DNA of 64,000 bases from the NCBI GenBank assembly GCA_001643675.2, contig LSRY02000048.1, positions 620,001-684,000 of the forward strand, written 5' to 3'. The position numbers and the translations under genes were made by a program. The DNA comes from Monocercomonoides exilis PA203. Taxonomy: Eukaryota; Protista; Preaxostyla. The notes beneath the pieces were generated by a model. That model was not told the origin of the DNA, did not search any database, and saw nothing but the letters and a program-made list of their open reading frames with translations. This document shows positions 28,536 through 59,600 of this stretch, piece after piece; within the stretch, counting starts at the first letter, position 1; each line of letters begins with the position of its first letter.

Positions 28536-30038
28536 TTACAGGTGAACAAGATAATCAAATGAATCTCTTGACAGTTGGTAATTTGGATTGTTGCTGATGA
28601 TATTCAGCAGCGTTCCATGAAAGCTTGTGATGATATCTTCGTGTCCTTCTTCTTCCATCTTTTCAAACAACTCTATTTTTGCTGCTTTTCTTTTCGCTTC
28701 TTCGATTTCATCATTTGTATTTCTTTTCAATTTTCTGGAAAGTGCAACAAAAAATTCCAAACAACTGAATGCATTTGAGTCTTCAATTGTTATTTGCTGA
28801 ACTTTCTCCAAAAACACATTAACAGCTCCACTTTTCAGCAATCCATCAATTTGAATATCTCTGTTTCTCGCTGCAGTTCCCAAAGACTGAATGCATTGCC
28901 TATAAATATCTCCATGATTATCCTTTGCTGCTCGAAGCACTTGAATGACGCTTCTGATAACTTCAATAATTTTTTCATTCCTCGAATTGCATGAGGATAA
29001 ATAAATTTCCAATACTTCGAGCCATCCTGTCAAAATAAGCTCTTCTTTCATTTCATTTCTTTCCTTTTCTTTTTCATGCTCTTTTTTCTCGCAATCAATG
29101 CATTTCTTCAGTTCATTCATTTCGCTTTGAGCTTCTCTCACAAAATGCAGCTCATCAACAACACTTTCCAATTTTTCTTCGTAGTATAATCCGTTAATCA
29201 AAAACTCCCAAGCGCACTGATACGCAAGTTGAGTGAGATTTCCACACTCCTGATGATATTTGATGACATCTGTCATCTCATTCAGATACAGCTTTTTTTT
29301 GATCTATTTCAGAAATGGTGTTAAAAATTCATAAGAAAAACAATAAACACAAAGCAGTATCATGCCTTTTATCTGTAAAAGCAATTCAGCGCTATCAGTG
29401 CAATTTCCACTTCTTTTTGTGTTTTTTTATTATCATTTTTGCTCGAAGCTGCTTTCACAAAATAACGTAAGCAAATAACTAACGATTTTCTAGGAATCAT
29501 GCACTAGCGCATCACTGTACAGCATTCACAAAGATCTGTTAGGAGCCTTTCATTCTTTTCTTGTTTCTTTTTTTCTTCTTTGACAATCATCTTTTGAACT
29601 CTTTTATTCAGCTTTGACTAATGAAAACTGTTACTCCACTCATTTATCTGCTCTTTCCAATTGCCAATATGTTTCATCAGCAAAATAGCTCTGTTCAAAG
29701 TCAATTTCTTTTCTTCAATCATTTTAATAATTTTGTCATAATTCTTTTTTGTAAATATTGAATGAAATTCTTTTTCTTTCATTTCTTCAATCATTACGTT
29801 CATCTCATCGATTTTCTTTCTCTGTTCATTCCCATTGCAATCTTCCAGTTCATCAAGCAACTCTTCAAAAAATTAATAAAATATTCAAAAATATCTGAAG
29901 TTTAATCAACAGAAAAAACCACAAACTTGAAAACTTTTCTGTAAGCTCTGTCTTGAATTCTTCCTCTTCCTCGTCATCCCAATCCTCTTCTTCTTCCTCT
30001 TCTTCCTCATCATGATCGACTCCATTAATTTTACTCAT
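28536..30038 (-). pseudogene. Helical 3-exon family, copy 5 (nonsense mutations)
   Basis: Exon 1 is 29927-30038 (acidic, ...KTELTEKFS) and the intron is 29863-29926. Exon 2 has in-frame TAG at 29618-20 and 29504-06 and TAA at about 29369-71, and the second donor reads gcatga. Exon 3 (28536-29303) is open. Confidence 0.8.
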
Positions 30039-30414
30039 TGAATATTCTAAACATATGAAATGAATTTCAAATATAAACGAGCTAATCGAAAAACACAAAC
30101 ATCTTTATTTATCTCACAAAATAAAAATTATACAACTTCAATTTCAAATGCTATACTTTGGATAAATTAGAAGCAAAAATGAAAGTGAAGAATAGCTGTA
30201 ATTGTTTGTTTCACACCAATATTTTGCAAATCAATCGTTTTGTGATCGAACTCACCATAATATGTCCAAATGCAATTTGAACATGTAAATAATTGGGTGA
30301 TTTTTTTTTTTGATATCATAAATAATTCCGACGTTTGATCAAAAAATATTTTCATTAAGGGTTGCTCAAAAAAGAAAATTGAAAGTGTCATTCATGTAAA
30401 AATATTGCATAATA

Positions 30415-33400
30415 GATACAATGCAGATTAAATTGGATCATTTGAATTAATAGAGGTTTTTTTAATAACCCTATGTTAATTTGAATAAAGACCACTTAAT
30501 TCAAATTAAAGGCCAAAATTTAAAAATCACCATCCTAATTCAAATTAGAAAAGATCATTCAAATTAATAATAATTGTGGGAAAGGAAAATAAAACAATCA
30601 AAAAACACTTATTAAAATAAAGTGGAAACAAAAGAAAAATTAAACCTTTTTTAACAGTCTTATTAACCAAACCTCGATAATTCGATTGAAGCTTGTTTAC
30701 ACGCTAAATTAAATAAATGTTAAATAAATAATTTGTCAATAAAGAAAAATGATAATTTGTTTTGAGTTTTGTGTGAAGAATGATTCGCTTCGAAGATAAT
30801 TTTTATAGTTTTTTGCATAAATAATAAAAAGAAAACAACATAATTCTGACAATTTTGTGAAAAAAAATATTTTTCCTGCTAACATTTCATTAAACTGTCA
30901 ATATTTTCACAACAAGCATTGCACAGCGATGTTGAAGTTGTGGAATCAAAGGCTAATTTCTTTTGCTTTTATCATTTCCTCAATTTCATTTAATTCTGTC
31001 GATCATGTTTTTTTCTGATGTTTCTATTTCAAAAATTAAAAATGATCTTTCTCTTTTTCTTTCTTAAAAAACTCCCTCTTTCTTTTCATCTTGTAAGTCA
31101 TCTTTATTTTTGTTATCAATTCTTTCAACATTTTCATACCACATCCTCGTAAAATCTCTAATGCCAACTTCTTTGTAAAGAAGAACATTTTCTTCCTTTC
31201 GCCTTTGCATCTATTTTTAGAAGCATCCCACATTCTCTGTAATTTTTTCCTTTTTTTTATTTTCTCGATTACCGTTTTCCTTTCGCTCACACAGCAGCTG
31301 GAGAAGGTTGTGTCACTCACCGAAAACGAGTTGGCAGAGGCAGATGAGGCGAATGAGATGCACCCGCCATTGGTTGCAGTCTGTTGGCATTGTGGAGCTG
31401 AGTTGATGTTGATCATGGTGCAGTTGGCGAGGGAGATGGAGAGGGCAGGGGAGGTGGCAGAGGAGAGGACACAGCTGGCGGGGGTGGTAGTGGAGGTGAT
31501 GCTGGTGATGTTGGAGGAGTTGAGGGTGAGGGGAGCGGTGAGGGAGGTGAGGTGGAAGATGCTCTGGCTGTTGAGGGCGAGACTGGTGATTGCTGTGTGG
31601 TTGAGGGCGAGGGAGCCAGCAGTGAGGAAGAAGAGGGGGGTTTTTATTGTTGTGGAGGTTGTTCCGGTGATGATGGTTGTGTTGAGGTTGAGGGAAGGGG
31701 AGTTGCCGGAGAGGTGGAAGAGGATGGGGGTGATTTGGTTTGAGGAGTTGTGAGCGATGGCGAGGGCAGAGACTGTGAGGGAGCCCTGTGTCTGTTGGAA
31801 GAGGGCAGACGAGGCAGATGGATCTGGTGAAGATGATATTGATTGTGATGACTGTGAATGTGAGTTTAGTGGTTGAGGAATGCCACTGGAGGAGATGACG
31901 GTGGCAGTTGTGCCATTTCAAGTTATTTTTGTTTCAACCTCACAGAATGCAGGAGTCTTTGTGGGAGTGAAAGTGGAGACGAGAAGAGAGAGGGAGGTAT
32001 CGCTGAAGGGAGCAATGCATCCGAGAGCATACTCCACTGTGGCGCATGGACTTTGCTGTGTTTTTCCACAGGCATCGACATCACTTCCACCATTTGCAAC
32101 AATTTTGTTCTGGTTGATGATTGGAAGCCAGCCATTGTACACATCACTAACAGCTGTATTCTCATTCCACACTCTTTTTGATGAGGTTGTTGATCCGCAT
32201 TGCTGGAAAGGAGATTGAGTGATATCACTTCCGTAAAAGAACACATCATTCCCTCTTCCATTTTTGGCAGTATTATCATCGAAGAAGCAGAAAGTGATGA
32301 ATTTAACTTCATTCATCCAAGTGAAGGTGTTTTATGTAACATAGCCCGGCTCCTCCCCATGAAGATGATGAATTTATCAATTTGTTATTAATGAACTGGA
32401 ACTTTTGTAGGAAATATTGAAGAGGTGTTACTGGTGGAGGATAATTAAATGTGATTGCTCCGGCCGCATCACCGCCAGTATTTGCAACGCATACACAATT
32501 TTTGAACAAAAATTTTGCATCTGGTGGCATGTCGTCAAGGGCAAAAAACTAACCAGTTCTACCCCAACTTGTTATTGAACAACTTTCAACTCTGTTTTCT
32601 ATTAGCAGCCGAATAGAATTTGTCTGCATTCCTCCAAGGCAATTCGCTCCTCCACCAGCAGCTGAACAATTTGTGTAATTGGATTTCGTAATGTTACCAT
32701 GAAATAAATGCAAGCTGTATGACGCTTCTCCTTCACCATTGGATGAACTATTGTGAAAAGAACATAATATGACTGTGAGATTTGCATTTTCGCAGTTGAC
32801 TTTATGTGCTCCACCTCAATCGCTTCCACCATTTGTCATTCCATTCGCACCACTCGAATCGATGGCTGTTCACATAAAACGAAATCAGTCTTCCAGGTTT
32901 CTTTTTATTAGTTTCATTTCCAATGTGTTCAACAGGAGCATTTGGTGTAGAGCTTGTTTGGCGAAGAAAGAAGGTGTCAAAGGCAGAGAAAAAAGTGTCG
33001 GAGCTGTAAAAAAAAGAAAAGATAGAACTGTTGATGATGGTTTGAGTTTGCTGAAAAAGAAATCTGTCAGTCGGGACACGATAGAATAAATGTTTGCCAT
33101 AATTGAAAAAAGAATTTCATTTGCGAGTAATCCTGGGGATAGAGTGTGTTATAAATGTGGGATATTCAAAGGCAAAATGTTTATAGAATTTGGAACTGTA
33201 AGAAAATTGTGTAATTTGCAAAATTAGAAGATAAATATCGAAAAAGAAAATTTTGAAATAATATAAAATGTTCTTCATAAAAAACGAAATTTTGAAAAAA
33301 AAAAAAACCATATATACCTTTCAACGTTCAGTGTTTTATATATTTCTTGTTAACGATTTTTAACATTGTTTTTCAGCAAGGTGAAAAATGAAAAACAATA

Positions 33401-33936
33401 TTGTTTGAAAAGTGCTGTTGCTTAAAACAAAAAAAGCATAATTACCTAATGAGCACTGAACAAAATTGCACAGAAGTGGCCGTTGGTGCTACATTTTTAA
33501 AGAAACTGTTTGCATTTGCGAAGAAATAAACAAAAAATTTGAAAAAGCTTTTATGATTTGTATATTGGGAAAAATGAATTTTTAATTGTTAAAACCATAT
33601 ATACTCGCATTATATAACTCACGTTTTCGATAACATAAGTTGGAATAGCATTTTAAACGAATTAACAAAATATTCTGTTTTTTCGAAGTTGATTATTGAA
33701 AGATCAAAATTTTTGCAAAAAGAAAATGAAAATTAACTTCAGTTTTTTATATCAATCTATTATGCAAATCATTTAATGAGATCTATTTTCATGTTTTGAA
33801 CATTCAATTCAAAATAGGATGAAGATTTTAAAAATAGGCCAGTCAATTTAAATAAACAGGGGTTATTTTAAATAACCCCCACAATTTTGAATTTTTTTTT
33901 TCAATTTGAATTATGTGATCCAATCTGCATTGTATC
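30415..33936. mobile_element. Non-autonomous TIR element A (3522 bp) with 5-bp TSD TAATA, carrying a surface-protein gene fragment
   Basis: Perfect 15-bp terminal IR GATACAATGCAGATT (30415-30429 / 33922-33936), extending as about 140 bp of imperfect arms. TAATA is duplicated at 30410-14 and 33937-41. No transposase is recognisable inside. Confidence 0.8.
31270..33100 (-). pseudogene. 5' portion of a Cys-rich surface-protein gene (cargo of element A)
   Basis: Broken frames encode ...FCFFDDNTAKNGRGNDVFF..., DACGKTQQSPCATVEYAL and a Ser/Thr-rich region ending TNGGCISF...FSSCCVS. There are multiple stops and frameshifts, and no TM region. Confidence 0.75.
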
Positions 33937-34699
33937 TAATATTAGATAAAATGTGAAATGAATTGGTTATTTCAAATTATTTGTGTTATTTCAAGTTTCA
34001 GCCACGAATTTTGAATTAACCCAGTTATTTTGAAATAACCTTGAAAAACTTAAATCTACTGGACGTTTTTTAAAAACATTAAATAAAAATATTTTTGATA
34101 TAAAAATGGTTTCAACTATATTTTGAATTTGAATATTTGACCTATCTTTATTATGAAAATTTGCATTAGATTAATTATTGGAAACTTTTTTTTTGTTTGT
34201 GATAATGAAAAAAGTTTTAAGATTGCAAAAAACGAAATATATATATGAAGATTGTTCCCATTCGTTTCAAATATCATCAGTTTGCTTGAATGGTAATTGT
34301 TGATTCCTTACTTCTAAAGCTTTTGACAAATCACAAAAGATTTCCCTATAAACGTATCTACATATTCAATGATCTTCTTTTGTCAAAATAAACATGTGGA
34401 AAACAGAAATTATCGATTTTATTTTGTAATGACTCGAAGAAATCATTTCCAAATATTTTTTGTCAAACAGTTATGGTCTTCCAAAAAAAAGAAAGCGTGA
34501 AATTCTGTCAAAAGGATTTTATGTCAAATGATTTGCGCGAAATTCGACAAAAAGATAAGATTATATTTATGAAAATTTGGGCATATGAAGATGAAATCCT
34601 AAATTTGAAGAGTGAATTTAGTTGAAAGAAGAAATGCTATAGAAACAATGAAAAACGACTTATTCTCAAAATTTTTCAGAACTGAAAATCTGTCTTGGA

Positions 34700-35380
34700 A
34701 TTGCGAACGGTAATGGAGAGAGTGCATGTGTGTTTGAGTGCTCATTCACTTCGTGTACACTCACAAATAATAATGGTGGAAGGATGTATTGTTATGGTGT
34801 TCCAGCTGCATTCAAAATGAGGAACATCCAGTTTATTTCGTGAAACACAACATCAACAGGTGGAGGATTGTATTTTAAACAAATCAACAAACAATCCCAA
34901 GCAACAACCTTTATTGCTACTTCTTCTTCTTCTTCCATGATAGCAGATGCACAACTACTTCCACTTCATATGGACACGATGTTTATAGTGAAGATGATTA
35001 CAATCTCTTCTCGTCGGACAATCCGTTCTATGAATCGTCCACAACGAATAGCAACGATAAGAAAGTGTGCTATTGAGAAAATGGAGCATATCAGCATACA
35101 GAAAAGAAGGATTGGCTGAAGGAAGGGATGAATGATCGGTATGTTGGGGTGAGTGGAGATGATACAAACAATCTGTGTGGGATGAGTGAGGCAGCACCTT
35201 GCAAGACAGTGGGGCATGCAGTGGAGTCGAGCATGGTGCAGCTGAGCTTCTCGATAACGTTGCATAAGGGAAGCGTATAAGAGAAGAGAAGAAGAAAAGC
35301 ATTGAGGAAAAGAAGATGATTAATACAGGGAGAGGGAAAGAGGTGAATGTGATTGGGACGAGTTCACTTTCTTCTTCTTC
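34700..35380 (+). pseudogene. Internal fragment of a Cys-rich surface-protein gene (cargo of element B)
   Basis: The broken frame reads GNGESACVFECSFTSCTLTNNNGGRMYCYGVPAAFKMRNIQFIS*NTTSTGGGLYF ... KKDWLKEGMNDRYVGVSGDDTNNLCGMSEAAPCKTVGHAV. Confidence 0.7.
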
Positions 35381-36149
35381 TTTCAAAAACAGAAGAAGTG
35401 TTCAGTTTATCGAGATACCATTTAAGAATGAATTTCAAAAAGATTTATTGCAAAACAACGACTGGTTATTCATCTAATGTGGTGATGGAGCTTACAGAAA
35501 CTGGGAACTTTCATTTCATGGAGCATTCCAAAAGAAGATAGAAAGTTTTATGATAGCAGTTGTGGGACAATTGTCAAGTCTACAGAAATGAAGGCAAGCT
35601 GCGAGCAGGAATCAAACGGCTGATCATGGAGGTGACAAAATTCAATTTACGCAAGTCAATAAAGACGAAAGAATTCAGTTCAAAAATGCAAGAAAATGTT
35701 GCAGAAGCAATGAAGTCGCTATATTTTAACGATTTTCAAAATTCATAATTCTTTCGAATGTTTTTTAAAAAAAAGAAAATACTTTTCACTTGCGTTAATG
35801 ATTTCTCAAAACATGATTTTGTAATCTTTTTCACTTGTGAAAGTTCAAAGTGAAAAGTTTCACATTTCATTTTTGAAAAATGTTGTTTTAATGAATTTTT
35901 GAAGATTGCAAATACTTTAAAAGACTCGTGATTTTTATGTTTAAGTTTTAAAATAGATATTTTTCAAATAAAAATATTTCTTTGAAATTCAGGCAATTGA
36001 ATGTTCTTCTCAAGTCAAATAAAAAGAAAAATTTCAAAAAACTAGTTACTCAAAAACAAACAACTTCATATTTAGTAATTTGTTTGAAAAAACAATCCAT
36101 TTTCAAATTTATCACCATTCACAACAATGCAATTATCGAACACTTCTTT

Positions 36150-37030
36150 TTCCATCTTTTTCAATAACAAAAGTTTCGTAACTTTTCGTTTTGCCAAGAG
36201 GCTTTCATTCTCCGTATTTTCGGTTTTGCATGAATATTTTAGAAAATCTTTGTATCATCCACAAGTCCCTCATATGCTCATCTGATCGATCTTTTTCACC
36301 AAGACTGCATCGGCTTCTCAGATTTCTGACAAAACTTCAGCTTCACATATTGATTATCAACTGCGCATTTAAGAAAATTCATGCATTGCTTGCTGATTTC
36401 TCCATCATCCCACTTAGCTTCCCTGAATTCCATACAACGATGCACGTGAGCACTTCAAATTCTTCATTCTTCAACTGGTAAAAGCAAAGATAATGCTTTG
36501 ATGCAATAATTATCAACATTTCACTTAGTCTTCTTTTCCCACTTTCATTTGTCCCTTCCTCTGCCAATCAAAACCCTTTTCAAACTCTGACAATTCTCTC
36601 TTGCATCTCTTCCAAAACTTAACTCTTTTGAAATTACATCTTTGTAATCTCGTTGAAAACTTAAATGCTTATCAATAACTGTCAAACAAACTGATTGATA
36701 AGGCGTTTCGAGTTTCGATGTTCTCGATGATTTTGAATGACTTCTGCCATCTCCTTCAAATGCAATTCTTGTTCAACATGCTTTCAAACAACGAGAAAGA
36801 AATTAATAAATGAACAAAAATAATTCGATTACAAACTTTCCACATATCAACGTTGCTCACCATCAGCTTTGATAATTCCACTTCTTTTGAGTTTAATTAT
36901 TTTCTTCTTTCTTCATAGGAAACTTTCAAAAGACAAACCACGTAAATCAAAAGAAATATTAATGAATATGCAGCTCAGATAAATGAAACACACACAAAAA
37001 TCAATCAGTCCTTTCATTCTGAAAACTTTC
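36150..37030 (-). pseudogene. Helical 3-exon family, copy 6, heavily degraded (cargo of element B)
   Basis: Minus-strand remnants ...YVVCLLKVS...QKEVELSKLMVSNV, then an intron-like stretch, then HVEQELHLKEMAEVIQNHREHRN...YQS...QLKNEEF... These match the end of exon 2 and exon 3 of the intact copies. Boundaries are approximate. Confidence 0.65.
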
Positions 37031-38405
37031 TGTTTCTGCTGTTTCTTTTAACAAAGTCCAAATTCAAAAAGCTATTGTCTTCGAAAAAAAAGAAAGAATG
37101 ATTTATAAGATTCAATAATTCATTTAATAACTGTTTCGCACCAGCTAAGAATTTTGTATTTTTGAATATTTTTTATATTAGCAAAAGCGTTAAATACAGA
37201 AAGATTCAATATCTATTTTCAAAACCAAAATGAGAGAAATCTTGAAAGAAGAGAACGACATTAATAAAAAATATTAACTATAGATATAAGCAGTTGATGT
37301 CACTCAGTTTTTGAATGTATTATTGTTTTCATACAATATATGTCGGAAAATCATGAAAATATATTGATCATTTGCATAACTTTATGTTAATCAATCAGAA
37401 TAACTCAAAATATGACTAAGAAATATATAGTATTGTTTTATATTGTTTGTTGATTAAAACAGAATCAATCGTTTTTGTTTATTTTACTGTCACAATTAAA
37501 AACTGAAATTTTTGAATTCAAAAAATGTGTATTTAAATATAAATAAGTTCAAACTCATTTTTAAATGGATTCAATTCTTTGTATAACATTTGTCTTCATG
37601 TTTGAATTAATTATTTTGTGAAAAAATGATATTTTTTCACTTTCATGTTAAAAGATCAAGCTTTTTTGGAAAACAAGCAAAAAATGCTTTATTTGCTTAA
37701 AATATAACGTAATATTTAATGTTGATGCGTTTTTGACTTCCACCCTCAAAACATTGTTTTTTGATAAATGCAAGACTGTCAGGTCACAATTGAAAAAAAC
37801 TGGTTTTTCTTAAAAACACTGCCTTTAATTTAAAATTACTGGGGGATCTTGAAATAAATAGTTTATTTTGAAATATATTTTTATTTCACAATTTATCTAT
37901 TAAATTATTATTATTCATTTTGTAATTTTTCTAAGAAATTAATTGTTTTTATTTCTGATATAGAAAAAATATTTTATTTGATTTTAATCTGTTTTAAATT
38001 GTTTTTATTACAAGTTTTGAAAAAAAAATTAAATAAATTATTCGAAAATATCAAATCTTCAGAAAACAGAACAAAAAGTCAGTTTGCTTGTTTCAAAAAC
38101 ATAAATAAAATTATTTGCATTATGCTTAAGACTATTTCTATAGGAAAATATAGCAGTGGTTTCGGTTATTGATGTGTTATTATCAAAATGGAATTATTAA
38201 TCTGTAGCCATTTATTGAAATCTCTCAATTTTCAAAGCAGTTTTCATTTTTAATGATTCAACAACAAAATTATTATCATATCAGCAATAGTGAGCAACTT
38301 TTTTTATTTATCAACAAATGTTTCTCAGAAAGAAACACATCAAAAAAATTGATCCAAAAAAGTTATAGAAAAAAATATTAAAGGAAAACGTTTTGACAAA
38401 AATAT

Positions 38406-40068
38406 ATGCAAATCGGGAAGCGTAACTTCAGATTTATCAAAAGCTCCCTAAACATTATTACAACTTCCTTACAGGATATCCACACTTCTTCTCCTTCATC
38501 TTCCTCAAACTTCCTCTCTCGCTATCCTTCTTCCACTTCCTCCTATTTGGTGCTGACTTCTGTTATCTGGACTGCAACATCGTACACTCCTTTTTCGCTC
38601 CCACTACTCTTCTCTATCTGTTCTGCTTCCACATTCACTAGCAGCACTGAAGAAATTTCTGAAGGAGATTCTTCTGACCCGTCGTTTGAGCCAGAAGTTA
38701 GATAGCTTTTGGTCCATCATACCTCTTGCGAAACTTCAAATACAACCAGCTACACCAACAATGAAACTCATGTTGCAGCTGGAAACTTGTGGATTAGGAA
38801 AGATTATTTTTCAGGATGATAATATTCAACTCTGTAAGTTTGATGCTGAACGACTTCAAAATACGGGAGAAATTGCGAGCAGCATGTTTTCATTTCGACA
38901 GTGTGAAGGCAGCAGCGATGAACAATGAAGAAAATTGATTTCTGAGCATGTGCAGAAGTGGATTTGAGATGGAGCGCAGGTGAATATGGCAGAGGTTTGA
39001 AAAGGCGAGGCAGGTCAGGAAATAAGAAACCAAACAAAGTCCAAAGGAGGGGGTGTTGCAGACGAGCTGGTGACAGGGGCTGTCCTGCTAATAAACCGTT
39101 CATCCTTTTGAAGTGTACAGCATCGACTGGGGAAAGGGAGGCACAGAGCCATGACTTGGGTGGTGAAATGTTCTTAGATGCAACTGATGTCATCAAGTAG
39201 TTTGTCCTTGTGCATGCGATGTTTGCTGGATGCGATACGAGGAAGAACAAAAAGAAGTTGACACGATGAAGCATGCTTCAGGCTGTGGTGGATATAGGAC
39301 ATTTTTACGGATCATGATCTGCGCAAGCCTAAGCTTTCTCAATAAACTTTACGGATTTGAGTTGGACGCAACTGATTCGTCTCGCTCCATCTCTTTTGTG
39401 AAGTATTTCTGGGCAATCATGGTCAACAAGGCGTTTGTGAAAGGAGACAAGGGCTTTTATTTCCTCGCAAGTGGGCATTCTGCTGAATACAATTTGGAGA
39501 TACTTTGTTCCATTTTGCCTGGAGTAGCTGTTGGGCATATTATCATAAATTCTCACACAATGTATCTGCTCCGGCCAACCATCAGAGGTAGCGAGATGTT
39601 TGTCGACTGCACCGAATTCGAAAATACTCTATTCATTTCCCTATCTTTAACCACAGCTGTGCATTGAACGATGCCTTCGTGGATGAGGATGTCTTACTTC
39701 AGTGCTCCAGCATCCACTCCCAAATCAACGTGCACCTCTTTTCCCTCGACTTCACTCAGCCCTCCCTCGCCACAAACACCTCCATCAGCTGCTCCGACTC
39801 CTCCCACACCAACCCAGTCCCCGTCCTCGATCTCGCCTCCTCCCCTTCATCACCTTCTTCCGCGCCCACCAGATATTCTTCGAATAATACACCGACTTCT
39901 CTTCCTGCCAGCACTGCTCCCCGCTTGCCCCCTGCGCTTTACTCTCCACAGCCGTCCTCCATATCTACCGCGCCATCTGCAACACCTTCTGAATCTTCGC
40001 CTCCTCCTTCTTCGATACACAGATCTCCCTTGCTTTCATCCGCTTCGTTAAACCTCGGGAAATCTTGA
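38406..40068 (+). pseudogene. Degraded surface-protein gene fragment
   Basis: Fragmented ORFs. DVLLQCSSIHSQINVHLFSLDFTQP...PVPVLDL (39664-39840) parallels DIFVECWSIESQINEAQFLLDLRP...NPVDL at the start of the gene at 1-3089. Confidence 0.45.
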
Positions 40069-40524
40069 ACTTGTTTTCTTCGCCACAACTATCTCATTGC
40101 TATTGTCGCTTTTCTCAACAACTGCATCCTCACCTTCTGCAATTTTTTTTTCACTCTTCCTTCGCATCTGCACACTCTTCCCTCTTCTCCTCTCGACGGA
40201 TCCCTCACTGCATCTTCTTCCCTCTTTTCTGCAGCCGGCAAACATGCCCACCTCAACTCCGCACTCTTTTGTGATTTCATGAGAAAACTTCTTTATCCAT
40301 CTTCTATTATAATTTCGTCCACCTCTCCTGCCCCGCTCTTCGTGCTCTACACGCTTCTTCATTCTTTCTCTCCCGCACCAACCTCTCCGCCCTCAGTGCT
40401 TCCTCGCACCTGCTCGTGTTCGACGATGGCTTCAGCTGCTCCATCGTGCATCTCAACGCCAATGATCTCTCCGTTGCAGCTGACAGCGTTGTTCTTCTCA
40501 ATACCCTCTGTAATCTCCCTTCTT

Positions 40525-40568
40525 TTCTTCTTCTTCTTCTTCTTCTTCTTCTTCTTCTTCTTCTTCTT
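40525..40568 (+). repeat. (TTC)n microsatellite
   Basis: About 14 perfect TTC units. Confidence 0.9.
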
Positions 40569-41008
40569 TATTCTCTGCAAAGTCAACCAGAAAGCTTTTT
40601 CATCATTAGTGTCTCATTCTTTTGTCACTCTTTCTCCTCCATTTTCCACTCTTGCATATCCTCTTCAACATCAGCCACTTTAACATTCTGCCGTATTACA
40701 GCACACCGCCAGCCGAATCTGTGTGCCAATTTTTTCTTTTGCGCCTTCTCACGATATCTTCAGTGAGAATACGAAAGTGAAAGAGCAGAAGAAAGGAGGG
40801 AATCTTATGATAGAGAAGAAGCAGCGGAGGCAGTGAAGGATGGTGAAGGAGATAGAGAGAGGAAAAGGAAAAGCAGAAGAGAGAAAGAGGAAGAGAAAGA
40901 ATGAATTGAATTAATAAAATTTATTATCTTCCTTTTAAAACTTTTTCCTTTTCACGTAAAACACACACACACAGAGAGAGACAGACACAGACAGACAGAC
41001 AGACAAAT

Positions 41009-41389
41009 CTATTGCTTCATCTGCTTCTTCCTCATCCTCTTCTGCTTCCATATCTTCTCCTCTGTCTTTGTCTTCTCCGCCTTTTTCTGCGCTTTTTTCA
41101 GGAGCCCAATCCCGTCGTTCATATTCATACACGATCCTTTCTCCAAACCACAATTCACTTCCTTGGCACCAGACACTCCACCTGCATACACCATGTTTGC
41201 GTATTGTCAACCGAGAAATATAAACAAATCAACATCCCAATCGCCAAATACATCTTTTCTACCATATTCAACAATTGAGTTGTCTTTCTGAGTGATGCTT
41301 GTCATGAAGGCGAACAAGGGTTCCTTCACAGAAGCGACAAGGGATTCACACACAAAATACACATCCTTTCTGCCTCTTCCTCCAATACT
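41009..41389 (-). pseudogene. Short surface-protein gene fragment
   Basis: One frame with one stop reads GRGRKDVYFVCESLVASVKEPLFAFM...DVDLFIFLG*QYANMVYAGGVSGAKEVNCGLEKGSC, a variant of the CG-x-PC module. Confidence 0.6.
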
Positions 41390-42564
41390 TTCACATCAGC
41401 CGGTGAACTTGGTGTAAAAGATAACGTGTTTCAAGAAAAGGTTTGCGAGCTGAAAGAGTAATTAAGTTATGCTGCGAGATAAATATCACAGAAAGTGCTA
41501 AAGATAGAAGCAAACAACGTTGGCGACATTTTCTAAGGAAGGATTTGGATATTGAAAAGATGAAACAAAAGGAAAAGAAGTTGCGGATGGAGAAGGAAGT
41601 TTGAAAATCATTTCCTTTAAAAGAATGAGGAGAAAAAAAAAACAAGATGGAGTCAGTTGTAATCATCAATTGAATGATTCCCCAACTTATCTAATTCATT
41701 TACTGAAACAATTTGTCCGCACAGCCGGATCGGTGATTTACCAATGCTGTTGAGTTGGGGGAAAAAAAAATAAAAACTCACAATTTTCATTTTTTAACAG
41801 TCAAACAAATTTTATTACAAATAATAATCTTTTAAAATCTTTTTCAATAACGTTTTCAATCAATTTGATCGTTTTGCGAGTTTCATGCTTCATTTCATTT
41901 TGAAAAAGAATTTTTCAATCCTTTGTTTTTTTTTTGAAATTTGATCAACACATTCATTTGAGCAGAAAATATCAAAAAGGTATGTTTTTTTATTTTTATT
42001 TTATGAATAAAACGAACCAATATTATGATAAAAAATTTTAATGTTTATGAAAAATCAATTTTTGTTCAGTGATCAAAAAGTTCCACAATATTAATTATTT
42101 TTCCGATTTTTGATCTTTTTTTATGATTTCAAAAAAAAACACCCAATTTTTCTCTTTCTGAAGAAACCAACGATTTGTTCAAAACTTTTTATGCATCCAT
42201 TTCACAATCGGCCTAACATTATGATACAAAAAAGAATTGTGGATTATTGAATTTCGAGAAAGATTCAAAAATATTGAATGGAAAAAAAGGTCTAAAGCAA
42301 AATATTCTGGATCAAAGAACATCCAATTTTTTGAATTTTTGAAGGATTGATCACTTTAAACAAAAAAGGATTTTCTTGATCTTCCAAGCAAAACATTTTG
42401 AGCAGGCTTTATTCAAGTTATTTTCTTGAAACAGCATACACTTATCAAGTTTATCTGCAATTAATAATGTTTTCGCAGTGCTTGTTTGAAATTAAAAGAT
42501 GTTTGTGTTTGTCTATAATCTCGTTTTAAACTTTGAGTTATTTTTCATATGTTCAGAACAAATA

Positions 42565-42723
42565 ATGAACGAAGAGGATGCATTATATAATGCCGAAGAG
42601 GAAGAGGAGAAGAAGAAGGAGAAGGTGAAGAAGATTTTGAAGAAGATATGGATTATTATGAGGATTATGATATGGATAACCTTTATGAATATTATCAATC
42701 AGAACTTGCAGAAAAGTTCACAA
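42565..42723 (+). pseudogene. Orphan exon 1 of the helical 3-exon family (copy 7)
   Basis: ATG plus an acidic run (one frameshift) ends ...YEYYQSELAEKFT-A|gttagt, matching exon 1 of copy 5 (...EFKTELTEKFS-A|gtttgt). No exon 2 follows. Confidence 0.55.
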
Positions 42724-43851
42724 GTTAGTGCATTTTTTTCTTGATTAAACATTCAATGCTTTGAATTTTTTTTTTAAATTTTTATTTTTATTTTTATTTT
42801 TATTTTTACATTTATTTTTGTTTTAAAATTTTTTTTTTGAAATGGAGAAAAAGACAAAATTGATAGTTCTGAAAATACTTGTACTCTCACTTATTACTTT
42901 CATTTATCTCACTTTCTCGTCTTCTCGTCTTCTCGTCTTCCCTCTCTTGAAATTCAGCATTCTCATAAATGTATTTTTCAACCTTCAAACCCTCTTCTTG
43001 AACTCTTCTCTTCCTTTTTCACTCTTTCCTTTCGCCAAAAATCATCTTCAATTATCTGTATCGCATATCCACTCTTGAATAACCTTTCATAGTGGAATAT
43101 TTAATCTCTTTTACCCTTTCTCTTTCTTCACTTTTCATCTTTTTGCTCTCCCTGAACTCTTCTTTTAAAAGCCATCTTGTCCTCCCACTCTATCTCGAAT
43201 ATTCCTTTCAACAACAAAAACAGTGAAAATCAATTCAAAATTCCAAAAAATATAATTAACATGAATGGAGATTTTTTACCCTTTTCAGTGATTCGAATAA
43301 TCGAAAATGCACATTTCCTGCAATTAAATGCAATCAGCCCATTTCTATTTCTTCATTCCCTCATTTTTCAACAGTCTTATCAGCAGGTTAACCAATCGTT
43401 TCTTTGACAATCTTTCCCAACTCCATTTCCTTCGATTTCCGTTCAATTTGAAAGAAGTGGCGATTATCTTTGATTTTCAAGTCTATCCTGTTTAACGAGA
43501 AACTTAGTTTGCTTTGTCAAAAAATCTATCATATCCTTCATCCTCCCAATCACATCATTCTGTAAAGTCTTCAATAGCTCTCGCTTCTCATTATAAATAT
43601 TAACTTATGGGCATATGATACAAATACGCCACCTTGCCAAATTTAAGATGAACTTAGGATCATATGTTAATAGCACATTTAAAAAGACAATTCAATCGTT
43701 TATTAGTGGAAAAATCAGATTTTATTGAATAAAATATTGATCAACCCATTGAAAATTCTAAATATTTGTGCACAAAATTGTCAGTTTTAATATTGATGAG
43801 TATATATATTATACCAAAAACATTCACGAATGTCAAACATTTAATCATTTG

Positions 43852-45491
43852 ATGGAGGAAAAACAGAATTTATTGAAGATTTTTTGCGATAATGGAGAAA
43901 CCACGCAATGGATTCACGACAATGTGATTAGCACTGCCAGAAGATGCCCAATAGCAACTTGTCGTTCATTAATGATTGTAATTTGAGGAAGAAAAGGAAA
44001 ATGGTTCTTCAGATGTCACAAATGCAGAAAAGAAGTTTCTTATAAAACAGGAACTCCGTTTGCAAAATCAAAACTCACAATTGAAAATCTAATTCTGATT
44101 TTTTTCTTCTTTTCCCATCATCTCAATATTTAACAAACATCATTTCTAACTTCATGTTTAAGACACAGAGTTTCTCATTATTATTGCATTTGTCGGAGAA
44201 CATGTGCTCAGATGATTGGTGGAATTCAAACTTCCACAGGAGGTCCTGGCCGCATTGTGGTAATTGATGAACCTGTTTGGAGAAGGCGAAAATACAAGAG
44301 AAATTTTGATTCTTTATCTGTCGAATCTTAATTATCAATTGAATTTTTTTTATCAGGACGTGCTAAGAAGCAGATATGGATTTTCGGTGCTCAGGAACGT
44401 GGAAGAAAAGCATTTGTTTATCAAGTGTGCAACAGATCTGCCTCTGAATCAATTCCGTTTAAAAATATATATATACGTCCAGGAACAGAAATCCACTCTG
44501 ATCAATTGAAAGCATATTTTTCTTTAAGTGAGGATGGATTCACACACAAGACCGTCAATCATTCCGAGCATTTTGTGGGTTTTTATTTTCTCTTTTTATT
44601 GTCATTTTTCATGTAATGTTATTTCTCACTTATTCAGATCCAATTACCGGTGCTTGAACAATTCATATTGAAACGTTGTGGGATGCGCTTCGTAAGTTCA
44701 TGCCTTCTCAAGGAGTGAGAATTAATAGAATGCATGTATTTTTCTATTCATTTTTGTTTTTCAGAAATCGAAAAGTTGATTTTTCCATTTTTGTGTCGAA
44801 TGTGATGAAATACAGTCTAAACAGGATATGATCACGTCGAATACAATCGCATTCGTTTATAGTCACATTTTTCGATGCACCGATATTTTTTGACAGTTTT
44901 TCATACATTTTCCATCGCATATAATCACAGGGCTAAATATTTCTAATCACATCTTTTATTATAATGTGTGCTTTTTTCAATGAAAAATCGATTTTTTGAT
45001 CAAAATTTTCGATTTTTTTTGATTTTTCAAAATTATGTTTAAATAAGTCTTAATAACATAATCAAACATAAAAAATTGTTTTATCTATTGAAAAATGCGT
45101 TTAAATGTAGAATTTTCGAACATTTAAAATTTGACCCAAAATTCATTAATTGATTAATTAATTTTTATTTTTTCTGTGTAAATCATCATCGTGTATAGTC
45201 ACAATCGGATAGAGTCACAAAAAGTTGTGCAAAAACCGATGTGATTATATCCGGTTTAGACTGTACAGTGATGAAGAATGCAAAGCTCTTGAGGATGAAG
45301 ATTTTGGTCCTGAAGAAGAGGAAGAAGAGGCTGACACTGAAATGTTTCACGAAGATGAATCTTCAAAGAAAGATTATGTGCGTGAAACAGATGCATCATC
45401 AGATGGGGCCAGGGACGGAGCTGATGCATCTGAATGGGAGGCTGATAAATATATACCGATTTTTCCACATATCATTCTTCTTAAATTTTAA
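43852..45491 (+). pseudogene. Merlin/ISXO2-like DDE transposase with two introns; nonsense mutations and MITE insertion
   Basis: N-terminal Zn-ribbon CPIATC...CHKC, then GGPGRIVVIDE...RRKYKR|GR...WIFG...NRSA...IRPGTEIHSDQLKAY...HKTVNHSEHFV|DPITGA*TIHIETLW. Introns are 44303-44356 (donor decayed to AT) and 44579-44637 (GT-AG). Stops occur at 43984, 44131 and 44655. The acidic tail resumes in frame after the MITE. Confidence 0.9.
44813..45263. mobile_element. Tc1/mariner-pogo-like MITE (451 bp), TA TSD, nested in the Merlin transposase
   Basis: TIRs cagtctaaacaggatatgatcacgtcg and (reverse complement) cagtctaaaccggatataatcacatcg match 24/27. TA is present at 44811-12 and 45264-65. Removing the element restores ...NVMKY-SDEECKALED... 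in frame. Confidence 0.92.
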
Positions 45492-45792
45492 AACAACATG
45501 TTCTCTTTGATTATTTCTTTGTAATATAAAGATTTGTGAGGTGGCTTATAAGTACCATTTGCCAACTTTTGAAGCAAGGATGCATTTTTGTCATTCATTT
45601 TCGTTGATTTTTTCATGTGCAAAGCACGGAAATGCATAAAATAATGAAACTTTCAAAAATAATAAAATATTTTTTTGAAATATCAAATTCAAATATAATC
45701 TTCAATTTTGTTAATTGAGTCATTCCAAGTGTCGCATTCGCTCAGTGCATTTCATAATTGCGAATAAGGTTGATTTCTGTTTTTTTTCGATG

Positions 45793-45971
45793 TGTCACAC
45801 AAAAAATAATTCTAATTCGAAAAAAAATAATTCGATTTCGGAATTAATAATACAATTTCGTAATTTATTAATTCAATTTCGAAAAAGAATAATTCAATTT
45901 TGAAATCGAATTAATAAATTCCGAAATTGTATTATTTTTTTTCGAATTAGAATTATTTTTGGTGTATGACA
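45793..45971. repeat. Foldback/hairpin element (MITE-like) built from ~21-bp subrepeats
   Basis: aaaaataattctaattcgaaaaaaaataat is present on both arms in inverted orientation, with outer tgtca...tgaca and internal aattc(g/a)atttcg units. No clear TSD. Confidence 0.75.
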
Positions 45972-46314
45972 AAAAATTACACAAATAAGTGATTTCAAAA
46001 ATGAAATATTGCCGAGAAAGAACAATATTGATATATGAAACAGAATTCATTCTCATCCTTTATTCAAGTTTATTTCATCTCAAATAGAAAGAAAGCTTCC
46101 GAAAAATGATTTTTAAAAAAATTTAGAACAAACAGCAATGAATTTAAAAGAGATAGGTGTTTCCTGTTGAGGACCATCTTTTAAAACTAATATGAAAGGA
46201 TTCTACAAAGAATAATTTGTTGACAACAAATTCATTTTTTATCACATTTTTTGTTAATTATGCCCATATTTTATAAATATCACAGAATAGAAAAAAATAT
46301 TCTCTTGAGGAGCA

Positions 46315-49766: not shown

Positions 49767-50717
49767 ATTTTTCGAAAAGTCTAATCAGTCGTATTTTGCA
49801 CATAAAAAGTGTTTTTAACTTAAATAAACATAAAAGCAAACTTGAAACAAGATTTCAATTTTGAATAATCAAATTAAATATGATATTTGAATCATAAAAT
49901 AATTCAAGAAAAGAGAGAAAATATTGAAATTATCATTCTTCATTAATGTTGTATAAAAAAACAAAACTTTTATAACTTTTTCGTTTTTTTGAGAAATGTT
50001 AAAATTTTTATTGAGTCAAATTATTAAAATAGTGAAACAAATACAATCTAAATCGTATGCAATCCCATCGAACACAATTCACATCATCTATTTTCAAAAT
50101 TTCCTATGCATCGACATCTTTTGCTTGTTTTTCACTTATTTTCCATCACAAACAATAACAGGGCCCAATATATATAATAACATTTTGTTTCATAATGGGT
50201 TCATTTTTAGTTGAAAAATTAAATTTTAATATTTTTAAAATTTATTCAAATGCATTTAATTATTGTTTTTGAAATGATTTAAATTATTTTTTCAATAGAA
50301 AAAAGTGCAGTTGTGAAGAATTTTCAAAAATTGGAAATAAAACCAAAAATTCAAAAATTAATTAATTGGGGGGAAAAACGGACTTTTATGCTTTTTTTTG
50401 CACAAAGCATGAAAATTTTGTTTCACTCGCAATATTATAAAACTTTATCAGATTTCAAAATGAATAAGATTCTCATTTCCATAAACCGGTGTCATTGATA
50501 TAATAGTTAAGAACAAAACCCGCACTTTTGCAAAAACCCGCACACTTGACATTTTCCATCGAAATGCTATTCCACTTTCATATGTGTGAAAGCGTTTTGC
50601 ATTTCATTTCCACCATTAACTATTATTTGTCCAATATTTTATATTTCGATAGAAAAATCAAAAACAAATAATTTTGATCTTTTTTGATCTTTTGATTTTT
50701 CAATCGAAATACAATTT

Positions 50718-50935
50718 GGCTGATCCTTTTTTAATTCTAACTTTCGTTCGAGTTTTGATTCAAACAATAATCTTAATGGGATTTTTCATAAAAAAAAAAA
50801 AAAAAATAATTTTCTTTTTTTTCGTCATCATGCATTGGATGTGTATACCGGTGTTGTTCATTTTTCCAAAACCCCATTAAGAACAAAATTTTGATCAAAA
50901 CTCGAACGAAAGGATGATTTCAAAAAGGATCAGCC
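50718..50935. mobile_element. MITE (218 bp) with ~65-70 bp imperfect TIRs
   Basis: ggctgatccttttt...ctttcgttcgagttttgat...tcttaatggg is mirrored by cccattaaga...atcaaaactcgaacgaaag...aaaaaggatcagcc. ATTT flanks both sides (50714-17, 50936-39). Confidence 0.8.
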
Positions 50936-51363
50936 ATTTTTTTGTTTATTTCATTAAGGGAATATAATTATTTTTTTATTTTTGTTTTTATTTTTTTAAT
51001 TTTGCTTGATACACATTTCATGAAATTCTAGTTCATGTGCGTTTGCTAATTTTGTTCAATCGTTCGGTGAATGTACAAGATTGTCTCTTCAAAGATAACA
51101 TTTTTCAAAAAAGGATGTCCTTGTCAAAAATAAATCAACTATTCCACAAAAAAGATGAAAATGCATTTGCCAAATTATGCATTCAAAGTTTAAACATAAT
51201 TCAATTTTATTTTGCATTTTACTAACAATAAAAGATAAATCATTTATTCAAGATAAAACAAAAAATGAAAATATCTTTATTTTTAAGATTAAAAATGTTT
51301 TCATAATTTTAATTTCAAATGTTTCGGTTCGAATCAAGAAAAATGAAGTGATCCAGAAATGTC

Positions 51364-54109: not shown

Positions 54110-56623
<2,514 letters not shown>

Positions 56624-56662: not shown

Positions 56663-59600
56663 ATGAAAAAGGCCTCTCGGTCTGAAATTCTTAAAGATTA
56701 TGCAAATCTTATAAAATTAAGTAATGAAAATGTGCGTCGCTCAATTAGAATTATTTCTATTTCATTGTTGAATTTTTGTAATATTTATGTATTTTTTGTC
56801 TTTCCTCACATATGTGGTGCAATGAAATTTTAGAAAATTAATACAAAGAATACATGGTCATTGAAGCTAATTGATTACATCGATGATATTATATCAACAC
56901 ACGAAGAAGGTGGAAGGACAAATTTTCAGTTAGCATCATGCACCTTGAATGCTTCTGTGCAAATCTATGGTACAAGAGTTGATTCAGTGTATCATGATGC
57001 TTTTAAAATTGTAGGAGGACTTAATGCAGCTGGTCCACTTAATCCTGGTATGAAAATTTAAAACTTTCAACAGATTCATTTTTTTTATTTATTCAGAAAC
57101 CTTTGAGGAAATAAAAGGAAAAACAAAGCACGAAACAACAAGGGTGTGATATTATTATGTAAATGAAATTGCATGCAAAATACATTTTTTCCTTATTTCA
57201 GATGAAAACTGTTGCATCATCTCAAGCAACATTGGAAACATCAGTTGATGAAATAAACGTAAAGAAATGGGATCAAAATTTTCTTGTCGATCCGATAATT
57301 TGGAGGGCTACCAGAGAAGGAGAAGAAGGAACGCTGTCAACTTCTTTGATTGTAAATTTGGAGTCGGGTGTTTGTGGAAAGATGTTATTTGATGTTTCAT
57401 CATATCAAGGAAGAGAAGAGCCAGAACGATGGTACAACGGAATGTACGTAGATGGAGCAGATTGGAAGGAGATGATGAAAGAAGATCGGAAAGCCATTGA
57501 AGAAGAAGAAAAAGCAGAAATCAAAAGCATACAAACAGAAGATGAGCCAATGTGGATATGCGAAGTTCCTTCAATAGGTCTGCGCTTTATTTGACTTGTA
57601 TTTTTTTATATAAAACATATTTGCTTCAAAACAATATTCACAATTTCTGTTTCTATTCTTCTTTTTGTGGGGATTTTTCTTTGGACTTATCTTTTCTCTT
57701 TCTGAATGAACATTCATATCTTCAAACTTCAAACTTGAAATTATAAAGATTTGAGTGGTTTTGAAACAGAAAACATGCAAAAGCAGATTCTGCCATCAAA
57801 GTTAGATGGAGCAGAACAGAAACGAGAGACAATGCAGACAAATGCAATGGACATCGAAGAAGAAAACAGACAGAACGATGAAAAAAGCATCCAAACATTC
57901 AAAGAAGAGATGGGTGCTGTTTCTATTTCTTCAGAAAGAGCATACGAAAGAACGGAGCACAGTGGAATGGATGCCGTCAAGCCAGTTGAAGTGAGTGAAG
58001 GATTCTGTGACGATGGAGACGACAGCGGCCTTCTGATGGACATTGACGATGATTGGCAGCCTGCTTCTGCTGAAGATGGCTCAGACGCAACAGCAGCTGC
58101 ACCATCAGCAGGTGTTTCAGGAGAACAGAAAGAAGGGGAAGAAAGAGGAAGAGAAATCAAAATTGTGAATGTTGTGAATGTTATTGGTGATGCTGCTGAT
58201 GCTGGCATGGATGAAGAAGACGATGCAATGCAGTCAGCCACGCAGATTGTGACAGATGCGCTTTCAGTCTTCAACCGCCCAACAACGCCAGGCGCCTTGT
58301 TCAATGCAGAAATGGGGAAATCTGACTCCTCATCGACAATTGAGTCGCCTTCACAGAGCAGTTCTGGCTTGCCACAGGCAGAAGAAACGGGGATGTTCCA
58401 GATGGAGTCGCAGTTTGTGACACCGACGATTCGTCTGACGCCTCTCAGCGAGGCAGCCACGCCGAAGCTGTTCGAGTCGGCTGTCGATACACCTGCGGGG
58501 AGAGGGGTGATGCGGACGCCCAGCCACAAGTACTCGAAGAAGATGACAGCAGAGATGGATGCCATGATGGAGAAGGCGCTGATGGAGGTGTGGCTGGTTG
58601 TGGTTCTTGTGAAGCATTGATAATATTTCACAATCATCAATCATAATTATATATGTAATTAATTTCATATCGCCATTATATATATATCATATTCTATGCT
58701 TATTTCAGGCAACAGGCAATGAAGATACACTGATGACACTCGATTATATGAACGGAGGGCAGATTGCCGCTCGGCGTGCAGCAGCGGCAAAACGCCGAAT
58801 GATGAAAGAAGGTGAAGAAGAAGAAGAAGAGGAGAAAGAGAAAGAGAAGGAATCAAAGAAGAAGAAGAAGAAAGGAAAGAAAGGAGAAGGAGAAAGCGGA
58901 GAAGAAGAGGAAGAAGAAGAAGTGAAAGAAAGCGAGAAAAAGAAGAAATCGTCCAGGAAAAAAGGAGTGCTTGATTTCTCTCGCCCGATCGTGTTGGCAA
59001 GTGGCAAAGTTGTTCCGAACGGAAAAGACAAAGAAAAAGATAAAGACAAAGCAGCACGTGGCTGTATCACTTCCTTGTCCTTCTCCTCTTCCGTCAGCGA
59101 CTTCCAGTTTCTTGCGGAGTGTCCGTTTCCTCCACTGAAGACTGCACACGACGCAACACTCACCCGCACTACTATCAGCAAGCTGCACACACACACAGCT
59201 GTCTCTGTCCCTCGTGACATGCACTTCACCCTCAACTCCATCACTTCTCTCTCTCTCTTCCCCCGCAACCCAACCTTTGGCGCCACATCAACCACTTCTT
59301 CCTCATCTCCTTTCGCTTTCACATTTGCACCTCCTCTTCGTGGTCGCCCGTCGCTTCTTCCTTCTCTGCCACCAGAAGCAGCCATCCGCTTTGCCGAGCT
59401 GCGTGCTCTTTTGTCGAATTTCGACTCTGACGCCGTGGCGATGCCACCGCTTCTGACACACACACGATCTGAAGTGGCGAGTGTGTTGGGAGCAGAAGGT
59501 GCCTCGCTGCTCGGGTGGGATCTGCAGAACGGCTCAGACATCTCTCCATTCGCACTGGCATTGCACGGAGCATCACTATCACGCACACAGACACAACAAT

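What the first reader, a model, noticed from the sequence alone, without database searches (positions are those of the whole stretch)
30410..37902. Two abutting gene-capturing TIR elements with GATA termini and 5-bp TA(A/T)TA target duplications: candidate new Pack-type transposon family
Seen in sequence: element A (30415-33936) has a perfect 15-bp TIR and TSD TAATA. Element B (33945-37897) has a 14/15 TIR and TSD TATTA. Both have 95-140-bp imperfect arms, the left arms of A and B resemble each other, and both elements are 3.5-4 kb. Neither encodes a recognisable transposase; both contain fragments of the host's expanded gene families. Established knowledge: eukaryotic TIR superfamilies with roughly 5-bp TSDs that I know (Transib, CAC termini; Polinton, AG termini; Ginger/TDD, TG termini) do not start with GAT, while gene capture of this kind is known from plant Pack-MULEs. 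Inference: this is an unclassified non-autonomous family that mobilises and shuffles surface-protein and helical-family gene segments, and may help drive their expansion.
Basis: partly seen in the sequence, partly recalled or inferred. Interest (0 to 1): 0.92.

Follow-up and report, generated by a model that had tools for sequence, protein, structure and literature searches.

The report
Gene-carrying Pangu-like transposons in an oxymonad
Two side-by-side 3.5-4 kb elements in the mitochondrion-less protist Monocercomonoides exilis carry broken pieces of its largest gene families; their ends fit the known Pangu type of DNA transposon (AG ends, 3-base duplication) better than a new 5-base type, and one has likely jumped recently with its cargo.

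Summary
The elements are real, but their ends were misread. A and B have the described inverted repeats and carry decayed pieces of two expanded Monocercomonoides exilis gene families. No transposase was found inside (0 of 86 fragments).

Contigs from public runs give an empty paralogous site lacking both elements, shorter by 5 bases per element. That fits GATA ends + 5-bp duplication, AG ends + 3-bp, or TAG ends + 1-bp equally. Flanks of other copies decide it: the base next to GATA is fixed, the third base out varies, and the fifth varies (7 of 10 listed ATT-flanked pieces lack the T). So the ends are AG..CT with an ANT duplication, the published Pangu (PHIS/Harbinger2) signature. The apparent TA(A/T)TA is half forced by two ANT duplications abutting.

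B's 2.7-kb interior is identical in about 4 copies with at least two left flanks, so it likely moved with its cargo. All four arms hold 19-20-bp-periodic motifs. No mobilising transposase could be tested. A role in driving the family expansions is unsupported. Verdict: Pack-type, Pangu-like elements, apparently unreported in metamonads.

The parts
30411..30413 (+). Left target duplication of A (AAT)
   Evidence: sequence; 3-bp length inferred
30414..33937 (.). Element A, 3524 bp, AG..CT ends, 16/16 terminal inverted repeat
30414..30563 (+). A left arm: terminal repeat plus six TTYRAA motifs spaced 39,20,19,20,19 bp
   Evidence: 0 of 2000 shuffles reach the chain
31282..33100 (-). A cargo: 5' part of a surface-receptor gene of the expanded family whose long members carry a tyrosine-kinase domain; frameshifts and stops; truncated at about residue 345 of the 1986-aa relative P0003 (83% identity)
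33788..33937 (-). A right arm: terminal repeat plus six TTYRAA motifs spaced 19,19,20,20,19 bp
   Evidence: 0 of 2000 shuffles
33938..33943 (+). Abutting duplications: AAT (right of A) then ATT (left of B); their adjacency forces two of the four bases that made the repeats look 5 bp long
   Evidence: sequence
33944..37898 (.). Element B, 3955 bp, AG..CT ends, 15/16 terminal inverted repeat; interior 34033-36785 identical in about 4 copies
   Evidence: (table 8)
33944..34075 (+). B left arm, internally palindromic (33965-34040), four TTYRAA motifs in the same register
   Evidence: 1 of 2000 shuffles
34730..35280 (+). B cargo 1: decayed fragment of a surface-protein gene with one CG..PC repeat at 35143-35230
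   Evidence: repeat profile iE 4e-8; tblastn E 3e-7; high contig depth
36335..37094 (-). B cargo 2: decayed fragment of the host's expanded uncharacterised helical-protein family (292 relatives found)
   Evidence: 87 of 120 family proteins hit it
37800..37898 (-). B right arm; only two exact TTYRAA motifs, others degenerate
   Evidence: 215 of 2000 shuffles, not significant
37899..37901 (+). Right target duplication of B (ATT)
30398..37915 (.). Span bridged by an empty paralogous site: contigs join 30408 (X2) or 30401 (X1) to 37898 without A and B
   Evidence: table 5c

Best explanation
A and B are transposase-free inverted-repeat elements with AG..CT ends, flanked by AAT and ATT repeats and filled with broken host-gene pieces, and they are likely cut-and-paste transposons moved in trans by a Pangu-type (PHIS/Harbinger2) transposase encoded elsewhere in the genome. 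Shown: the ends, the periodic arm motifs, the cargo, an empty paralogous site, variable flanks of other copies, and an identical B interior at about four times single-copy depth. Inferred: a DDE transposase with its partner protein binds the 19-20-bp-periodic TTYRAA arrays, cuts at the AG ends and inserts with a 3-base stagger at ANT, mostly in a Y-ANT-R context. Inferred: the cargo entered earlier by template switching during gap repair or by two ends flanking host DNA, decayed, and now rides along. A and B are two related families, one inserted directly beside the other's duplication, about 450 bp beyond the last helical-family match in the left flank; the order of insertion is unknown.
For: Empty site 10 bases shorter than the window outside the GATA cores, i.e. 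5 per element, which excludes a TA-only duplication., loose ends: B-left copies break at 33941 (X1 5 contigs, X2 2; consensus base before ATT is C), 33943 (X1 4, X2 2; consensus gives C-AGT before AG) and 33938 (X2 2); A-right copies break at 33938 (X1 3, X2 2; next letters TT), 33940 (X1 3; next letter G), 33941 (X1 3). No listed row breaks at the base next to the core. Of 14 listed B-left pieces, 10 match through ATT and 7 of these lack the T at -5. Pangu: ANT duplications, TIRs of 11-40 bp, first two bases usually AG or GG (PMC4482050). B moved with cargo: four X2 contigs covering 2695 bases of 34033-36785 have 0 differences at depth 341-365, against about 65-112 for single-copy contigs; the shared left-end contig (depth 285) stops at 33943 while this window's junction has depth 77.5; right-flank paralogs differ at 2/199, 2/373 and 6/339 bases.
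Against: A supplement of oxymonad annotations shows no HARBI entry, though one file was cut when stored. Published Pangu hosts are animals, fungi, oomycete and algae; none of the 29 of 34 table rows seen is a metamonad. Two X2 contigs break at 33937 with G as next consensus letter, so not every flank is ANT. One search hid 22 loose-end rows and 120 pieces, its listed pieces are biased to the longest, X1 and X2 are one sample, and only A-right and B-left ends were sampled. ANT is also made by TBE, a Tc1/mariner element. Depth ratios are my inference of copy number.
Confidence: 0.64

Rival explanations
1. The ends are AG..CT with ANT duplications as read here, but the mobilising transposase is not Pangu: a Tc1/mariner-type enzyme that makes ANT as TBE does, another IS5-like lineage, or an unclassified DDE enzyme.
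For: No PHIS transposase is documented for this host in what I could read; oxymonad annotations seen are Tc1/Tc3/mariner, Merlin and unplaced DDE endonucleases. TBE shows ANT can arise in another superfamily. I saw no description of periodic subterminal arrays for Pangu in the passages read.
Against: AG start, ANT and 16-bp TIR together match Pangu on three counts. TBE ends are telomeric repeats starting CA. The window's own Tc1-like MITE has TA duplications and CAGT ends.
Confidence: 0.2
2. One reading: GATA termini with a true 5-bp duplication, an unclassified family. It survives only if the target is asymmetric and both sampled ends are the same functional end.
Against: The fifth base out varies while the first never does in listed rows. 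Two of the four outer bases in this window are forced by the abutting AAT and ATT. TA(A/T)TA is not the family consensus: C-ATT and C-AGT flanks are seen.
Confidence: 0.07
3. The ends are old transposon relics and the multi-copy B interior comes from segmental duplication, not from transposition with cargo.
For: The flanks are themselves repeated (tables 2, 3, 8); the right flanks of the other B copies were not seen.
Against: Identity among B copies stops at the variable base of the duplication (33942). B shows 0 differences in 2695 bases while flank paralogs differ by 0.5-2%. An empty paralog exists.
Confidence: 0.06
4. The termini are TAG..CTA with a 1-bp duplication.
For: Arithmetically compatible with the empty site; PHIS relatives are said to make 1-4 bp duplications (PMC10045372).
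Against: The fourth base out is conserved like the second in all listed rows, and the only listed exception falls on the second base, which this reading makes part of the element.
Confidence: 0.03

Closest known systems
Pangu / Harbinger2 group of the PHIS superfamily (Han et al. 2015, PMC4482050; equivalence to Repbase Harbinger2 from PMC12730594)
   Same: AG first bases, ANT duplication, 16-bp terminal repeat within the 11-40 bp range, 3.5-4 kb length close to the 3.5 kb average of autonomous Pangu
   Different: No transposase or second ORF; filled with host-gene fragments; 100-150 bp arms with 19-20-bp-periodic motifs; metamonad host not among the listed hosts seen
Pack-TYPE elements (Pack-MULE, Pack-PIF, Pack-CACTA, Pack-hAT, Pack-Mariner; PMC8903248)
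   Same: Non-autonomous TIR elements carrying fragments of several host genes; neighbouring insertions of related elements
   Different: Described there in rice, maize and Arabidopsis; Pack-PIF has TTA/TAA duplications, not ANT
TBE elements of Oxytricha (Tc1/mariner; PMC4724952)
   Same: ANT duplication, about 80-140 bp arms, protist host
   Different: TBE ends are telomeric repeats starting CA and TBEs encode three ORFs
Merlin families of M. exilis (PMC8101967)
   Same: Same host, recent DNA transposons; one decayed copy lies 6 kb from B
   Different: GG ends and 8-bp duplications in families F1-F6 seen in the supplement; no match to these ends
Polinton/Maverick, Kolobok, Mirage (AG-type termini; features recalled, not from a call)
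   Same: Can begin with AG
   Different: Recalled duplications of 5-6 bp, TTAA and 2 bp do not fit the empty site plus flank data with AG ends

Membership tests
Pangu/Harbinger2 (PHIS) | 3-bp ANT target duplication | tested here: met
   AAT/AAT and ATT/ATT in the window; empty site compatible; other copies show AAT, ATT, AGT with variable fifth base, one exception row of 2 contigs
Pangu/Harbinger2 (PHIS) | TIR begins AG or GG | tested here: met
   4 of 4 window ends; no listed copy breaks at that base (22 rows hidden)
Pangu/Harbinger2 (PHIS) | TIR length 11-40 bp | tested here: met
   16/16 and 15/16, followed by imperfect arms
Pangu/Harbinger2 (PHIS) | Autonomous partner with DDE (DDE_Tnp_4-like) transposase and second ORF | not testable with these tools
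   None inside A or B; host genome not held; annotation supplements inconclusive
Pangu/Harbinger2 (PHIS) | Transposase groups in the Pangu clade | not testable with these tools
   no transposase sequence available
Pack-TYPE elements | Non-autonomous, TIRs plus target duplication | tested here: met
Pack-TYPE elements | Internal host-gene fragments | tested here: met
Pack-TYPE elements | Cargo mobilised with the ends | tested here: inconclusive
   Strongly suggested for B (identical interior, different left flank), right flanks of other copies unseen; not shown for A
Proposed GATA / 5-bp TA(A/T)TA family | TA(A/T)TA on both sides of most copies | tested here: not met
   7 of 10 listed ATT-flanked B-left pieces lack the T at -5; 3 X1 A-right contigs have G at +5
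Tc1/mariner (canonical) | TA duplication | tested here: not met
   empty site has 4 bases where a TA-only reading predicts 10
Merlin | GG ends, 8-9 bp duplication | tested here: not met
PIF/Harbinger (canonical) | TWA duplication | tested here: not met
   duplicated triplets are AAT, ATT, AGT

The most novel reading that the evidence does not exclude
These are members of a genome-wide class of AG/ANT Pack elements moved by a transposase lineage not yet described (outside Pangu, or a deep metamonad branch of PHIS) that recognises a 19-20-bp-periodic array. They are still active and routinely shuffle receptor-kinase ectodomain segments, explaining part of the 35% unclassified repeats that overlap the kinase genes in M. 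exilis.
Probability: 0.15. Interest if true: 0.75.

Novelty: new variant of a known kind. Interest (0 to 1): 0.45.

Why it matters
If right, this extends Pangu-type ends and Pack-type gene capture to metamonads, where my searches found only Merlin described for this host. It gives concrete probes for a genome in which 35% is unclassified repeat, much of it overlapping tyrosine-kinase genes (PMC8767320), the host's largest family (PMC6759080). B appears to have moved very recently, so an active transposase may be findable. It is also a clean example of how abutting 3-bp duplications mimic a new 5-bp superfamily.

Tried and rejected
Whole genome not held. Exact 22-base A end in metagenome contigs: 0 hits. 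Degenerate arm pattern: 1 hit, an unrelated bacterial gene cluster, chance. 17-base end in prokaryote genomes: 57 hits against about 69 expected; none has a partner end closer than 3 mismatches or further similarity to A or B. End motifs in the Merlin paper's sequence supplement: none, three unrelated hits; long sequence runs there are cut. One search used an antisense frame of B and found nothing; it is uninformative. An IS5 region and a PF13359 search gave no usable route to a host transposase. No empty site among paralogs within the window. A contig joint 34040 to 37865 could be a mini-derivative of B or an effect of the palindromic arm; not used. RNA run X5 has contigs on cargo paralogs and none on most arm bins; not used as evidence. 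Earlier-findings look-ups returned nothing. Supplement of PMC6759080 was too large to read and may hold family annotations that bear on the transposase question. Rejected: TA-duplicating Tc1/mariner, Merlin, canonical TWA Harbinger (see membership tests).
Full report
Host and setting. A window protein is 100% identical to a Monocercomonoides exilis record, and all 26 hits to A's cargo are from that species. X1, X2 and X3 are one sample; counts from them are not independent.

Observation. The two 5-mers overlap by two bases between the elements. Arms align over about 137 bp (A) and 97 bp (B), above all 1000 AT-rich controls; cross-element pairs are only weakly alike (5-24 of 1000). The arms share a palindromic TTYRAA motif every 19-20 bp: chains of 6, 6, 4 and 2, reached by 0, 0, 1 and 215 of 2000 shuffles. 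Chains of three or more at strict spacing occur nowhere else among the window's 367 motifs except in A's two arms. Of 157 perfect 15-base inverted pairs in the window, most are paralogous genes or homopolymers.

Cargo. A holds the 5' part of a surface-receptor gene (33100 to 31282, minus strand) with stops and frameshifts, 83% identical over 345 residues to P0003, a 1986-aa protein with a tyrosine-kinase domain. B holds a decayed surface-protein fragment (about 34730-35280, plus) and a decayed piece of an uncharacterised helical family with 292 relatives (36335-37094, minus; 87 of 120 fetched members hit it). None of 86 six-frame fragments matches a transposase family at E 0.1.

Empty site. 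(table 5c) shows contigs that join 30408 to 37898 with 4 letters between (X2, depth 65) and 30401 to 37898 with 10 (X1, depth 35). The window has 14 bases outside the GATA cores over that span. Each element therefore adds its core plus 5 bases. This excludes a TA duplication. Because the site is near-palindromic, three readings remain: GATA ends + 5 bp, AG ends + 3 bp, TAG ends + 1 bp. The empty copy differs from the predicted site at 2 of those 4 letters, so it is a paralog rather than a fresh excision.

Which reading. laid contigs on the A-right/B-left junction. B-left copies stop matching at 33941 (X1 5 contigs, X2 2; consensus base before ATT is C), 33943 (X1 4, X2 2; consensus C-AGT before AG) or 33938 (X2 2). 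A-right copies stop at 33938 (X1 3, X2 2; then TT), 33940 (X1 3; then G), 33941 (X1 3) or 33937 (X2 2; then G, an exception). Of 16 listed pieces, 14 are B-left type: 3 start at 33938, 7 at 33941, 4 at 33943. So, counting outward from GATA, base 1 is fixed, bases 2 and 4 nearly so, and bases 3 and 5 vary. That is an AG terminus with an ANT duplication. In this window A's fifth right base is the first A of B's ATT and B's fifth left base is the last T of A's AAT, so half of the 5-bp illusion is forced. Limits: 22 loose-end rows and 120 pieces were hidden, listed pieces favour the longest, consensus letters pool 2-5 contigs, and the other two ends were not sampled.

Mobility. Four X2 contigs covering 2695 bases of B's interior have no difference from the window at depth 341-365, against about 65-112 for single-copy contigs; X1 (154 against 30-43) and X3 (15-18 against 4-5) agree. 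The contig shared by identical B left ends (depth 285) stops at 33943, and the window's own junction has depth 77.5: about four identical copies, branching at the variable base of the duplication. Right-flank paralogs differ at 2/199, 2/373 and 6/339 bases. I infer that B moved with its cargo after the flank duplicated. Arm bins have summed depth about 1800-2100 in X2, which suggests tens of related ends; cargo bins reach 22,000-90,000. Summed depth is only a rough guide. Movement with cargo is not shown for A.

How it likely works. Shown: ends, arrays, cargo, empty site, variable flanks, identical B copies. Inferred from established DDE cut-and-paste chemistry: a transposase made elsewhere binds the arrays, excises at AG..CT and inserts with a 3-base stagger. 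Inferred: cargo capture by gap repair or by paired ends; neighbouring insertion of related elements is described for Pack-TYPE elements (PMC8903248, passages). Not shown: the enzyme.

Comparison. Pangu has ANT duplications, 11-40 bp TIRs and AG or GG first bases (PMC4482050, passages and 29 of 34 supplementary table rows); it equals Repbase Harbinger2 (PMC12730594, passages). Three end features are met; the transposase tests could not be run, so the claim is 'Pangu-like', not proven membership. TBE also makes ANT but has telomeric ends (PMC4724952, passages). Host Merlins have GG ends and 8-bp duplications (PMC8101967, passages and supplement excerpts). The host has genes annotated as DDE endonucleases of unstated superfamily and no HARBI entry in the supplement files searched, one of which was cut (PMC10703272, passages and supplement rows). 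PMC10045372 (first fifth) and PMC4122938 (passages) gave background on duplication lengths and the empty-site method. PMC8767320 (passages, supplement search) and PMC6759080 (passages; supplement unreadable) gave the repeat and kinase figures.

Novelty. Searches for Monocercomonoides with transposon, transposase or Harbinger, and for oxymonad with transposon (also 51), listed only the Merlin paper as describing a transposon family of this host. The library lacks Repbase Reports and most subscription journals, so an existing Repbase entry is not excluded. The expansion hypothesis is unsupported: both cargos are broken, and the window's intact surface genes and helical-family copies have no such ends.

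Verdict. Real, likely recently mobile, gene-carrying elements with Pangu-type ends in a new host lineage: a new variant of a known kind, interest 0.45. The most novel open reading, an undescribed transposase lineage with a genome-wide shuffling role, I put at 0.15.

Noticed in passing
window 43610-45563: Decayed Merlin element: GGCA ends (17/22 match), 8-bp flanks matching at 7 of 8, transposase remnant at about 43780-44830 with DDE_Tnp_IS1595 at E 1e-11.
   Followed up: partly
window 44813-45263: 451-bp element with CAGT ends and TA on both sides, Tc1/mariner-like MITE, nested in the Merlin element.
   Followed up: partly
window 45773-45986: 214-bp AT-rich foldback with internal repeats, just upstream of a 1006-aa surface-protein ORF.
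   Followed up: no
window 50639-50936: Two adjacent palindromic units, 50639-50714 and 50717-50936 (83-bp arms, 77%), possible MITEs.
   Followed up: no
window 30280-30365: Short stretch with very high contig depth (about 32,000-45,000 at 30323 against 35-100 for single copy), with look-alikes at 42117-42151, 44979-45032 and 50874-50943; a high-copy motif or end of another repeat, 50 bp from A.
   Followed up: partly
window 42495-42783: Paralog of A's left flank (29868-30106) in inverted orientation, without the insertion site.
   Followed up: partly
window 4644-29957: Five copies of the uncharacterised helical family (no Pfam match for the ORF tested; 292 relatives, the 120 listed all M. exilis).
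   Followed up: partly
window 57163-61225: Condensin complex subunit 2 (Cnd2) gene in several ORFs; a TPR protein ORF lies at 54836-55486 on the minus strand.
   Followed up: no
window 34040 and 37865: An X2 contig joins B's left arm to its right arm with 5 letters between: a possible 135-bp mini-derivative of B, or an effect of the palindromic arm.
   Followed up: no
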